Source: Escherichia coli
GTDB lineage: Bacteria > Pseudomonadota > Gammaproteobacteria > Enterobacterales > Enterobacteriaceae
Length of the DNA stretch: 64,000 bases
Assembly: GCF_024298765.1 (NCBI RefSeq)
Contig: NZ_CP101210.1
Strand: one strand, 5' to 3'
Shown here: positions 8,901 to 11,900 of the stretch, one piece after another
Layout of the letters: the number at the start of each line of letters is the position of its first letter
Numbering within the stretch: position 1 is the first letter of the stretch
Program-made: the position numbers

Positions 8901-11900
8901 CGTAATGGCGCTGTGGGGATTGCCAGGTGAAGCGGCAACCGTCCTTTTAGCCGCATTGATGAGCATGGGCGGCGCAGTCGGTGTTGCCGCCAGTCTGGCA
9001 ACCGCTGGCGCATTAACCGGCCACGATGTCACCGTTTTACTGCCCGCGATGTATTTAATGGGCAACCCGGTGCAAAATGTCGGTCGCTGCCTGGGGACAG
9101 CCGAAGTGAATGCCAAATATTATCCGCATATCATTACGGTCTGCGTGATTAACGCATTGCTGTCGATCTGGGTTATGCAGCTTATTGTTTAACAAGGAGT
9201 TACCATGATTGATTATTCCGCAGCCGGTTTTACCCTGCTGCAGGGAGCGCATTTGTATGCGCCGGAAGATCGGGGAATTTGCGATGTCCTCATCGCTAAC
9301 GGCAAAATTATTGCCGTTGCCAGCAACATCCCTTCTGACATTGTACCGGACTGCACGGTTGTCGATCTCAGCGGGCAGATCCTCTGCCCAGGTTTTATTG
9401 ATCAACACGTCCATTTGATTGGTGGTGGCGGCGAAGCAGGTCCCACGACACGCACGCCAGAAGTGGCGTTAAGTCGTCTGACGGAAGCGGGCGTCACGTC
9501 AGTGGTTGGTCTGCTGGGTACCGACTCTATCTCTCGCCACCCGGAATCCCTGCTCGCCAAGACCCGTGCGCTCAATGAAGAAGGCATCAGCGCCTGGATG
9601 CTGACCGGCGCTTATCATGTCCCTTCCCGCACCATTACAGGTTCCGTGGAAAAAGACGTGGCGATTATCGATCGCGTGATTGGTGTGAAATGCGCCATCT
9701 CTGATCACCGTTCTGCCGCACCTGACGTTTATCACCTGGCTAATATGGCGGCGGAATCCCGCGTTGGCGGTTTGCTTGGCGGTAAACCTGGCGTCACCGT
9801 GTTCCACATGGGCGACAGCAAAAAGGCGTTACAGCCTGTCTATGACCTGCTGGAAAACTGCGATGTGCCGATCAGCAAGCTGCTGCCGACCCACGTTAAC
9901 CGCAACGTTCCGTTGTTTGAGCAGGCGCTGGAGTTCGCGCGCAAAGGCGGCACCATCGACATCACCAGTAGCATTGACGAACCGGTCGCCCCTGCCGAAG
10001 GTATTGCCCGCGCCGTTCAGGCGGGTATTCCGCTGGCACGCGTCACCCTCAGCTCCGACGGCAACGGTAGCCAGCCGTTCTTTGATGACGAAGGAAATTT
10101 AACCCATATCGGTGTTGCAGGTTTTGAAACATTGCTGGAAACCGTGCAAATGTTGGTCAAAGACTATAGCTTCAGCCTTAGCGATGCCCTGCGCCCGCTC
10201 ACCAGTAGCGTAGCCGGTTTCCTTAACCTGACCGGGAAAGGCGAAATTCTGCCAGGCAATGACGCAGACTTACTGGTCATGACGCCTGAATTGCGCATTG
10301 AGCAGGTATACGCTCGCGGCAAACTGATGGTCAAAGACGGCAAAGCCTGCGTGAAAGGAACGTTTGAAACGGCATAACCGGTTGTCAGCCGCCCGAATGG
10401 ACGTAGAATGCCCGCAAGGGCGGCTGACAGAGTATAACGTAATGGATGACTGTGGTGCGGTTTTGCATAACATTGAAACCAAATGGCTTTATGATTTTCT
10501 GACCCTGGAAAAATGTCGCAATTTTTCCCAGGCGGCAGTCAGTCGCAACGTCTCGCAACCGGCATTCAGCCGCCGCATCCGTGCACTGGAACAGGCGATT
10601 GGCGTTGAATTGTTTAACCGCCAGGTGACGCCGCTGCAACTCTCGGAACAAGGGAAAATCTTCCATTCGCAGATCCGCCATCTGTTGCAACAGTTAGAAA
10701 GCAACCTGGCAGAGCTGCGTGGCGGCAGCGATTACGCGCAACGTAAAATCAAGATAGCCGCTGCACACTCTCTTTCCCTCGGTCTGTTACCGTCCATTAT
10801 CAGCCAGATGCCGCCGCTCTTTACCTGGGCAATTGAAGCCATTGATGTCGATGAAGCGGTCGATAAACTGCGCGAAGGGCAAAGTGACTGTATTTTTTCC
10901 TTTCACGACGAAGATTTGCTGGAAGCGCCGTTTGACCACATCCGCTTATTTGAATCTCAATTGTTCCCCGTCTGCGCCAGTGACGAACACGGAGAAGCAC
11001 TTTTTAACCTCGCTCAGCCACACTTTCCGTTACTGAATTACAGCCGCAACTCCTACATGGGGCGATTGATTAATCGCACTCTGACGCGCCACAGTGAGTT
11101 GAGTTTCAGCACCTTTTTTGTCTCTTCGATGAGCGAGCTTTTAAAGCAGGTTGCCCTCGACGGATGTGGAATTGCCTGGTTGCCGGAGTATGCCATCCAA
11201 CAAGAAATTCGCAGCGGGCAGCTCGTTGTACTGAATCGGGACGAACTGGTGATCCCGATTCAGGCCTATGCATACCGGATGAATACCCGCATGAATCCAG
11301 TTGCCGAACGCTTCTGGCGTGAACTGCGCGAGCTGGAGATTGAACCTGGTTGAAAGTTTTCTGCAGAAAATCTTCCGGCGCTGGGAATTATGATTGAGGT
11401 TCCTGCCGCAGTCATGATTGCAGACAAATTAGCCAGTGAAGTCGATTTCTTTTCCATCGGCACCAACGATCTGACGCAATATATTATGGCGGCAGACAGA
11501 GGAAATAGCACCGTCGCGAAACTGGTCGATTATTGTAATGACGCGGTGATTAACGCTATTGCTATGGTGTGTCAGGCCGGACGTAATAATGAAATTCCGG
11601 TCAGTATGTGCGGCGAAATGGCTGGAGATATCCAGCAAACAGCACGACTGCTCACCATGGGGATTGATAAGCTCAGTGCCAGTCCATCCCGGCTTCCGGC
11701 CTTGAAAGCAGCAATCAGAACCTCCCACTAATTGTGACCTAACGCGATACGTCTTGCGCGTATCGCGTTTCCCGTCATTTACTGCGGCATCGTGCGATGC
11801 CAGCTCCCCTTCTGCCAGACCAGGTCAAACGTTAGCGGCTCATCATCGTGGTACAGCATCATCTCCAGACTAATGACCAACTCGTGGCAATAGACTGCTT

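What the first reader, a model, noticed from the sequence alone, without database searches (positions are those of the whole stretch)
11390..11731. Orphan PEP-utilizing-enzyme C-terminal fragment between hypT and iraD
The ORF encodes only the C-terminal TIM-barrel portion of an enzyme-I-like protein (GTNDLTQY...MCGEMAGD), without phosphohistidine or N-terminal domains. It is probably a gene remnant and could give a misleading pathway prediction if annotated as functional.
Basis: partly seen in the sequence, partly recalled or inferred. Interest (0 to 1): 0.25.

Follow-up and report, generated by a model that had tools for sequence, protein, structure and literature searches.

The report
Known GimA island deletion remnant
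The short enzyme-I-like reading frame between hypT and iraD is the already published "342-bp GimA remnant", the scar left when a roughly 20-kb E. coli virulence and metabolism island was deleted, and it is almost certainly non-functional.

Summary
Window 11390-11731 (+) is a 113-codon ORF that matches only the last 116 of 293 positions of the Pfam PEP-binding domain PF02896 (E 6e-43). It cannot be extended: an in-frame TGA, which is the hypT stop, lies at 11351-11353.

It is the 3' end of ptnI/pptE, a 793-aa EIIA(Man)-HPr-enzyme I fusion protein and the last gene of the about 20-kb GimA (ibeA) island. In GimA+ strains that island sits exactly between hypT (yjiE) and iraD (yjiD).

Homeier et al. 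2010 (PMC2878320) described this "342 bp GimA remnant". Their pptE probe primers match window 11390-11409 and 11711-11731 exactly. The ORF is CFT073 c5406, and RefSeq already marks it as a pseudogene.

Of 5426 complete E. coli genomes, 245 carry full-length ptnI and 266 carry only the last 371-374 nt. 265 contain the junction-spanning sequence at 80% coverage or more, which points to one deletion event.

Details I did not find in the passages of that paper I read:
- The junction changes the last three HypT residues from VLS to EPG.
- The crossover probably lies in a CTGCA microhomology.
- The same junction occurs in Escherichia sp. E1V33, where the ORF has a frameshift and a nonsense codon.

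Verdict: an already known, decaying gene remnant of low interest.

The parts
11390..11731 (+). The 342-bp, 113-codon ORF. It is the published 'GimA remnant' ORF and is identical to CFT073 c5406. It starts at an internal Met codon of ptnI/pptE and ends at the native ptnI stop codon.
   Evidence: ORF list. Pfam PF02896 positions 175-290/293. The Homeier 2010 pptE probe primers match 11390-11409 and 11711-11731 exactly (primers). Exact protein identity to AAN83828.1, c5406.
11361..11731 (+). All DNA derived from ptnI: the last about 366-374 nt of the 2382-nt gene. It is annotated as a pseudogene in RefSeq at 11360-11731.
   Evidence: Ungapped alignment to full-length ptnI of strain Br_54_kylling starts at window 11358 = L004 26645. 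All remnant carriers match ptnI from nt 2009 or 2012 to 2382. It differs at 1 nt from the NRG 857C full-length allele. PGAP pseudogene annotation.
11343..11365 (+). Deletion junction. Identity to every other hypT allele ends after 11342. The next 23 nt supply the last three hypT codons (EPG instead of VLS), the hypT stop at 11351-11353, and a TTCTGCA that overlaps a CTGCA microhomology with ptnI.
   Evidence: Alignments to the GimA+ left flank, to ptnI and to K-12. No other source for the segment was found in GimA or K-12 DNA. In-register match to the native hypT end plus 3' flank is 16 of 23 for the GGC variant (binomial p about 1e-5 to 1e-4). HypT C-termini compared.
10442..11353 (+). hypT (yjiE), the left flanking gene. 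It is 303 codons, in the same reading frame as the remnant, and its last three residues are altered at the junction.
   Evidence: Pfam LysR HTH and substrate-binding domains. RefSeq annotation. The C-terminus is ...ELEIEPG* in the window and 4 other remnant carriers, against ...ELEIVLS* in GimA+ and K-12.
11741..11769 (.). A 12-bp perfect hairpin in the 47-nt spacer between the convergent remnant and iraD. It is inherited unchanged from the GimA+ arrangement and is probably the ptnI/iraD terminator or a 3'-end stabiliser.
   Evidence: RNA fold gives -24.5 kcal/mol, z = -4.1 against shuffles. The spacer is identical in the window, 5 GimA+ loci and 5 other remnant loci, one of which (L001) is near-identical to the window. 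The consensus terminator scan does not call it because the T-tract is poor.
11779..12162 (-). iraD (yjiD), the right flanking gene. It is the GimA-linked allele, only about 80-85% identical to K-12 iraD.
   Evidence: Pfam GPW_gp25. RefSeq annotation. 80.5% identity to K-12 against 98.4% to a GimA+ strain.

Best explanation
The ORF is a non-functional deletion scar. An ancestor carried the complete GimA locus between hypT and iraD, with genes in the order ibeT-ibeA-ibeR, gcl-hyi-glxR-glxK, cglC/E/T/D, dhaK-dhaL-ptnI.

A single deletion of about 19.9 kb removed everything except the last about 370 nt of ptnI and its downstream hairpin. ptnI (also called pptE) encodes a 793-aa EIIA(Man)-HPr-enzyme I phosphorelay protein of a PEP-dependent dihydroxyacetone kinase.

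The crossover most likely used a CTGCA microhomology. One copy lies 8-14 nt past the hypT stop and the other at ptnI nt 2012-2016.

The 113-codon ORF is an accident: an internal Met codon happens to be followed by the native stop. The fragment keeps the GTNDL and MCGE active-site motifs. It lacks the phosphorylatable His domain and the N-terminal part of the barrel domain, including Pfam positions 1-174 of 293. It therefore cannot transfer phosphate, and I infer that it cannot fold as a barrel.

Shown here: the homology, the breakpoints, the shared junction, the population counts, and decay of the ORF in one lineage. Inferred: lack of expression and function, and the microhomology mechanism.
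For: (1) A full-length 2382-nt ptnI lies at the same position, next to the same iraD allele, after dhaK and dhaL in GimA+ strains. Its domains are EIIA-man, PTS-HPr, PEP-utilisers_N, PEP-utilizers and PEP-utilizers_C.

(2) The window holds only residues 670-793 of this protein and no other GimA gene.

(3) The remnant differs at 1 of 374 nt from the NRG 857C full-length allele and at 2 from Trh52.

(4) Of 5426 complete genomes, 511 have ptnI sequence: 245 have at least 80% of the gene and 266 have only nt 2009/2012-2382. No intermediate forms appear among the 40 rows listed. 265 genomes match at least 80% of the 91-nt junction-spanning query. The junction sequence is the same in the 5 other remnant loci read (L001, L009-L012), apart from one synonymous T/C.

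(5) Position 11360 (T) agrees with the hypT 3' flank rather than with ptnI, and CTGCA is present at both breakpoints.

(6) There is no promoter-like site between the hypT stop and the ATG. By inspection of the sequence, only a weak GGGA lies 3-4 nt before the ATG.

(7) Escherichia sp. E1V33 carries the same junction, but there the ORF has a 1-nt insertion and a TAT-to-TAG nonsense codon.

(8) Rare variants of the 113-aa product hit the catalytic GTNDLTQY motif (N26S, L28M, T29M). Both changes private to remnant carriers in my sample are non-synonymous.

(9) Homeier et al. 2010 describe the same 342-bp remnant, its internal-Met start and its native stop. PGAP calls it a pseudogene.
Against: The ORF is intact in the window and in all 4 other E. 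coli remnant carriers I translated. The exact 113-aa sequence is recorded on at least 1000 contigs. At 1% divergence or less, an intact 342-nt ORF is expected even without selection, so this is weak evidence.

Homeier et al. report a statistical association of the remnant with uropathogenic isolates, and a predicted transcription-factor site upstream (data not shown in their paper). They leave expression open.

No expression data could be examined here.

The 7 mismatches in the 18 nt between 11343 and 11360, relative to every other hypT allele, are not explained by a simple microhomology deletion.
Confidence: 0.93

Rival explanations
1. 'Change of function': the remnant is expressed as a 113-aa protein with a new role. 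For example, it might bind and modulate resident enzyme I paralogues through the C-terminal dimerisation region, and might have been retained for fitness in the urinary tract. Homeier et al. raised this possibility.
For: The start and stop codons are intact in all five E. coli remnant ORFs translated here (the window and four others). The remnant is present in 266 of 5426 complete genomes. An association with UPEC is reported.
Against: No promoter is predicted upstream and the Shine-Dalgarno sequence is weak and badly spaced (sequence). Only Pfam positions 175-290 of 293 of the barrel domain are present. Variants occur in the catalytic motif. In Escherichia sp. E1V33 the ORF has a frameshift and a nonsense codon. 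The intact state is expected by chance at this low divergence. The UPEC association can be explained by phylogeny, since the remnant is found in B2 lineages such as ST73 and ST127.
Confidence: 0.03
2. The DNA is retained for a cis role rather than for its ORF. It would serve as the 3' UTR and terminator spacer between the convergent genes hypT and iraD. It would also supply the hypT stop codon and a variant HypT tail (EPG). In this way it could affect hypT or iraD expression, or HypT activity.
For: The junction rewrites the last three hypT codons. A strong conserved hairpin lies between the remnant and iraD. The remnant is in the hypT reading frame after a single TGA (sequence).
Against: In K-12-type strains hypT and iraD overlap by 8 bp with no spacer at all, and both genes are annotated as intact there. 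A deletion end-point has to fall somewhere, so no selection needs to be invoked. The in-frame arrangement has a one-in-three prior probability.
Confidence: 0.04
3. It is not a deletion product. Instead the fragment would be an independently inserted piece, or the seed from which GimA was later assembled.
For: None specific. GimA lacks flanking mobility elements and direct repeats, so the direction of the change cannot be read from att-like sites.
Against: A gene cannot be built 3'-end first. The fragment is 99.5-99.7% identical to the same part of intact alleles, in the same place and orientation, and with the same downstream hairpin and iraD allele. The breakpoint falls inside a folded domain.
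Confidence: 0.005

Closest known systems
The '342 bp GimA remnant' of pptE/ptnI (Homeier et al. 2010, PLoS One 5:e10877, PMC2878320); CFT073 ORF c5406
   Same: It has the same locus (between yjiD/iraD and yjiE/hypT), the same 342-bp ORF, the same internal-Met start and the same native stop. The published probe primers match the ends of the ORF exactly. The protein is identical to c5406.
   Different: Nothing differs. This is that element. Several points did not appear in the passages of the paper I read (term searches, not the full text):
- ptnI-derived DNA starts about 30 nt before the ATG.
- The junction changes the HypT tail.
- 265 of the 266 remnant carriers among complete genomes match the junction-spanning sequence.
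- The K-12-type GimA-negative locus keeps the GimA+ type hypT end, so it cannot derive from the remnant type by a second deletion.
- A decayed copy exists in a non-E. coli Escherichia.
Full-length PtnI/PptE of GimA (annotated 'ptsP' by PGAP), a DhaM-like multiphosphoryl transfer protein
   Same: The last 124 residues are 96-100% identical, including E(V/T)P, GTNDLTQY, DRGN and MCGE.
   Different: The full protein has 793 aa with EIIA(Man), HPr, EI-N, the His swivel domain and the complete PEP-binding barrel, and it follows dhaK and dhaL. The window has none of these.
Enzyme I of the PTS (PtsI; PDB 2hwg)
   Same: The remnant aligns to EI residues 425-540. From knowledge of EI, this region carries Mg/PEP ligands and the catalytic Cys502 equivalent.
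   Different: The remnant lacks His189 and its domain, the HPr-binding domain, and residues 261-424 of the barrel. It is not an enzyme I.

Membership tests
GimA remnant (Homeier et al. 2010) | Located between yjiE (hypT) and yjiD (iraD) | tested here: met
   hypT at 10442-11353 (+), remnant at 11361-11731 (+), iraD at 11779-12162 (-).
GimA remnant (Homeier et al. 2010) | [quoted passage not shown] | tested here: met
   11390-11731 is 342 bp. The pptE FP and RP primers match its two ends with 0 mismatches. It differs at 1-2 nt from the NRG 857C and Trh52 full-length alleles.
GimA remnant (Homeier et al. 2010) | All other GimA genes absent | tested here: met
   tblastn with IbeT, IbeA, IbeR, GldA, DhaK and DhaL gives no hit in the 64-kb window. 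PtnI hits with residues 670-793 only.
PEP-utilising enzymes / PTS enzyme I (functional member) | Complete PEP-binding TIM-barrel domain (PF02896) | tested here: not met
   Only profile positions 175-290 of 293 are present, corresponding to EI residues 425-540.
PEP-utilising enzymes / PTS enzyme I (functional member) | Phosphohistidine swivel domain (PF00391) and N-terminal domain (PF05524) | tested here: not met
   Both are present in the full-length homologue and absent from the window. An in-frame TGA at 11351 blocks extension.
PEP-utilising enzymes / PTS enzyme I (functional member) | Active-site motifs of the C-terminal domain (GTNDL, MCGE) | tested here: met
   GTNDLTQY and MCGEMAGD are present and align to the EI motifs. 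This alone is not sufficient for activity.
Pseudogene (gene remnant) | Truncated relative to intact orthologues at the same locus, with decay in at least one lineage | tested here: met
   Intact orthologues are present in 245 genomes. Escherichia sp. E1V33 has a frameshift and a nonsense codon in the remnant. PGAP gives it a pseudogene flag.
Pseudogene (gene remnant) | Not expressed as a protein | not testable with these tools
   Only sequence signals could be checked: no promoter-like site upstream and a weak SD. No expression data are available here.

The most novel reading that the evidence does not exclude
The deletion allele is more than a scar. By rewriting the HypT C-terminus (VLS to EPG), and by placing about 370 nt of in-frame ptnI sequence plus a hairpin between the convergent hypT and iraD genes, it could change hypochlorite-stress or RpoS-stabilisation responses. 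Possible routes are an altered hypT 3' UTR, reduced convergent-transcription clash with iraD, or low-level TGA read-through giving a HypT-PtnI' fusion. Such an effect could help explain why this allele has spread by recombination among B2 lineages, ST117 and a cryptic Escherichia lineage.
Probability: 0.04. Interest if true: 0.4.

Novelty: already known. Interest (0 to 1): 0.08.

Why it matters
It matters mainly for annotation. The ORF should be treated as a pseudogene, as RefSeq does, and not counted as a PTS enzyme I or PEP-utilising enzyme in pathway reconstruction. At least one database source names the identical protein as a PTS enzyme I component.

It is also a convenient marker. The single shared junction identifies genomes that once carried, or recombined with a lineage that carried, the ibeA/GimA island.

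The small additions made here refine the published reductive-evolution picture without changing it. They are the altered HypT tail, the microhomology at the breakpoint, the finding that the K-12-type GimA-negative locus is not derived from the remnant type, and the decayed copy in Escherichia sp. E1V33.

Tried and rejected
- **Extending the ORF upstream.** This was rejected. An in-frame TGA at 11351-11353 is the hypT stop, and everything upstream is hypT.
- **Looking for the rest of the gene or island elsewhere in the window.** tblastn found nothing.
- **Looking for the source of the 15-18 nt junction segment (11343-11360).** I searched GimA, the K-12 locus and the window, allowing up to 3 mismatches and exact 10-12-mers. 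Nothing was found. I first read the segment as filler DNA. I then revised this, because the GGC variant in other carriers matches the native hypT end in register at 16 of 23 positions. It may be a diverged allele, but the evidence is only suggestive (9 of 16 outside the microhomology, p about 0.01-0.03).
- **Selection test on the ORF.** Only 10 variable sites were found among 10 sequences, and only 2 were private to remnant carriers. That gives no statistical power, so I did not compute dN/dS.
- **Rfam scan of 11200-12700.** It gave only a chance-level archaeal snoRNA hit (17 bits against a gathering score of 38).
- **Consensus promoter and terminator scan.** No more sites were found than expected from shuffles, and none sat in a useful position.
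- **Literature search for c5406 or later work on the remnant.** Only the 2010 paper uses the term, and c5406 did not occur in the listed papers.
- **Using the RefSeq record of strain 2014C-3338 as the annotation of the whole window.** This is valid only up to about 29 kb, and with an offset up to about 37 kb. Beyond that the window diverges from the record.
- **Structure prediction of the fragment.** I did not run it. A confident model of a barrel fragment would not decide whether the fragment folds or functions.

Full report
**Observation**

Window 11390-11731 (+) is an ATG-to-TAA ORF of 113 codons. Translating the frame from 11354 gives a strong hit to Pfam PF02896, the PEP-binding domain of PEP-utilising enzymes (E 6.4e-43). 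The hit covers only profile positions 175-290 of 293. It also aligns to residues 425-540 of the 575-residue E. coli enzyme I (PDB 2hwg, E 3.5e-27).

The frame is closed upstream by TGA at 11351-11353, which is the stop codon of hypT (10442-11353; LysR HTH and substrate-binding domains). The gene downstream on the other strand is iraD (11779-12162; GPW_gp25 domain).

**What it is**

The window is E. coli. Over the 1.1 kb around the finding it is 100% identical to strain 2014C-3338. RefSeq already annotates 11360-11731 there as a pseudogene, 'putative PEP-binding protein, incomplete, missing N-terminus'.

In other E. coli strains, the position next to the same iraD allele holds a full-length 2382-nt gene. 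Examples are Br_54_kylling, UTI89, NRG 857C, SMS-3-5 and O84:H7 Trh52. PGAP names this gene ptsP, and it follows dhaK and dhaL. Its 793-aa product has EIIA(Man), HPr, EI-N, phosphohistidine swivel and PEP-binding domains. It is therefore a self-contained, DhaM-like phosphorelay protein for a PEP-dependent dihydroxyacetone kinase.

In strain Br_54_kylling the interval between hypT and iraD contains about 20.3 kb. The genes are ibeT(nhaC)-ibeA-ibeR(dhaR), gcl-hyi-glxR-glxK, a BCCT transporter, an FAD oxidoreductase, an MFS transporter, a glycerol dehydrogenase, and dhaK-dhaL-ptnI. This is the GimA locus that carries the invasion gene ibeA.

**Already published**

Homeier et al. 2010 (PLoS One 5:e10877, PMC2878320) typed this locus in 410 isolates and 72 ECOR strains. 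They found three states: GimA+, GimA-, and 'a 342 bp remnant of pptE' (a synonym of ptnI). The remnant starts at an internal Met codon and uses the native stop. It was found almost only in phylogroup B2 and ST117, including CFT073, 536 and F11.

Their pptE probe primers match window 11390-11409 and 11711-11731 with no mismatch. Their locus-screening primers match in iraD (no mismatch) and in hypT (one mismatch). The 113-aa product is identical to CFT073 c5406 (AAN83828.1) and is recorded on at least 1000 contigs. One source names it 'phosphoenolpyruvate-protein kinase (PTS system EI component)'. The finding is therefore that element.

**Anatomy of the junction**

Identity to the hypT of both GimA+ and K-12 strains is perfect up to 11342 (...GAGCTGGAGATTG) and then breaks. 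Ungapped identity to ptnI begins at 11358-11361.

The intervening AACCTGGTTGAAAGTTTT has no other source in GimA, in the K-12 locus or in the window. It encodes the last three HypT residues as EPG instead of VLS, and it also encodes the stop codon. HypT is 303 aa in all forms.

In three other carriers this segment reads GGCTGA rather than GGTTGA. With that variant, the 23 nt after 11342 match the native hypT end and its 3' flank (GTGCTTAGCTGACATTATTCTGCA) in register at 16 of 23 positions (p about 1e-5 to 1e-4). Excluding the terminal TTCTGCA, the match is 9 of 16 (p about 0.01-0.03). Position 11360 (T) agrees with that flank rather than with ptnI (A).

My reading is as follows. The crossover lay in a CTGCA present both 8-14 nt after the hypT stop (L004 6763-6767) and in ptnI (L004 26648-26652, ptnI nt 2012-2016). 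That removes 19,885 bp. The unusual hypT tail then comes either from a diverged allele or from error-prone repair at the junction. This step is inference. The alternative is a 19,903-bp deletion with an 18-nt filler.

The remnant lies in the same reading frame as hypT, which has a one-in-three chance of happening. A 12-bp perfect hairpin (11741-11769; -24.5 kcal/mol, z = -4.1) sits between the remnant and iraD. The 47-nt spacer that holds it is identical in the window, five GimA+ loci and five other remnant loci, one of which (L001) is near-identical to the window.

**Population**

Of 5426 complete E. coli genomes, 511 contain ptnI sequence. 245 contain at least 80% of the gene, and 266 contain only nt 2009/2012-2382. 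No intermediate forms appear among the 40 rows listed.

A 91-nt query spanning the junction is matched over at least 80% of its length in 265 genomes. No GimA+ or GimA- genome extends past 11345 on the hypT side. One deletion event therefore accounts for essentially all carriers.

The window's remnant differs at one nucleotide from the NRG 857C full-length allele. Its iraD is closest to that of the GimA+ strain Trh52 (1 difference), compared with 4-6 differences from other remnant carriers. This indicates recombination close to the junction.

All genomes with the GimA-type iraD (at least 90% identity to the window) number about 514. That matches the 511 genomes carrying GimA or the remnant, while 4878 genomes have the K-12-type iraD at 80-90% identity. 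SMS-3-5 is a chimera: it has a K-12-like iraD body and idlP-yjiC together with GimA.

The K-12-type locus keeps the VLS* tail and the following CATT, exactly as in GimA+ strains. It therefore cannot have arisen from the remnant type by a second deletion. This qualifies the 'two subsequent deletion events' idea quoted.

**Is the ORF maintained?**

The ORF is intact in the window and in the four other E. coli carriers I translated. At 1% divergence or less this is expected without selection. The two substitutions private to remnant carriers are both non-synonymous (V to I, and L to M within GTNDL). Among 15 listed members of the 113-aa protein cluster, rare variants hit the catalytic motif (N26S, L28M, T29M).

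The most telling evidence comes from a scan of one genome per species (100,044 species) for the hypT-EPG junction. It found a single hit, Escherichia sp. E1V33. That genome has the same junction and remnant, but with a 1-nt insertion and a TAT-to-TAG nonsense codon, so the frame is destroyed.

In E1V33 the remnant-iraD-intergenic tract is about 3% diverged from the window. The flanking hypT (8.7%) and uxuR (10%) are much more diverged. The tract has therefore been exchanged between lineages.

There is no promoter-like site between the hypT stop and the ATG. By inspection, the only Shine-Dalgarno-like element is GGGA 3-4 nt before the ATG. No Rfam family matches the region.

**Mechanism and verdict**

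The fragment retains the GTNDL and MCGE motifs, which from knowledge of enzyme I carry Mg/PEP ligands and the catalytic Cys. It lacks the phosphorylatable His domain, the HPr and EIIA modules, and the first 174 of 293 Pfam positions of the barrel domain. It cannot carry out phosphotransfer. That it cannot fold alone is inferred.

The best explanation, at about 0.93 confidence, is an inert and slowly decaying deletion scar that is at most transcribed as the 3' end of the hypT mRNA. Two rivals remain unexcluded without expression data. Both are unsupported and have specific evidence against them:
- a neo-functional micro-protein, the 'change of function' idea raised by Homeier et al.;
- a cis role as a spacer, terminator or modified HypT tail. 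Against this, K-12 has hypT and iraD overlapping by 8 bp with no spacer.

Novelty is 'already known' and interest is low.

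Noticed in passing
window 11343-11353 (hypT 3' end): In all remnant carriers examined, HypT ends ...ELEIEPG* instead of ...ELEIVLS*. The deletion junction, or a diverged allele linked to it, rewrites the last three codons. The remnant lies in the hypT frame after a single TGA.
   Followed up: yes
L015 (Escherichia sp. E1V33, NZ_RHJI01000003.1) 5300-5704, minus strand: A non-E. coli Escherichia species representative carries the same hypT::ptnI' junction. Its remnant has a frameshift and a nonsense codon. The remnant-iraD-intergenic tract is about 3% diverged from the window, while flanking hypT and uxuR are 9-10% diverged. This suggests inter-lineage transfer of the tract.
   Followed up: partly
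window 11779-12575 (iraD and its upstream region): iraD here is only about 80-85% identical to K-12 iraD and has a different C-terminus (...[12 protein letters not shown] against ...WDNGGWRSATLENVS). The K-12 genes ytiD and yjiC (DUF2686) are absent between iraD and uxuR. This iraD haplotype is found essentially only in genomes with GimA or its remnant. SMS-3-5 is a chimera.
   Followed up: partly
window 12159-12242 (-): A 27-codon ORF ([27 protein letters not shown]) overlaps the iraD start by 4 nt. It is the counterpart of the K-12 iraD leader peptide IdlP (MENEHQYSGARCSGQAAYVAKRQECAK). It is not annotated in the RefSeq record of the near-identical strain 2014C-3338.
   Followed up: partly
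window about 29246-30307: There is a 1058-bp insertion relative to strain 2014C-3338, with about 9 bp repeated at its ends. It encodes a 321-aa DDE transposase (PF13737/PF01609) on the minus strand, so it is an IS element. It falls inside the gene annotated as nanM in the reference record.
   Followed up: partly
window 37300-64000: Beyond about 37.3 kb the window no longer matches strain 2014C-3338. It is a mosaic island with no close full-length match among complete E. coli genomes; the best covers 90% of a 24.5-kb query at 97%. It includes another DDE transposase (54052-55260, -) and a chaperone-usher fimbrial usher gene (56546-59056, +).
   Followed up: no
window 204-1445 (+): The mdtM reading frame is open in the window (413-codon ORF). 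The near-identical RefSeq record of strain 2014C-3338 marks mdtM as a pseudogene with an internal stop.
   Followed up: no
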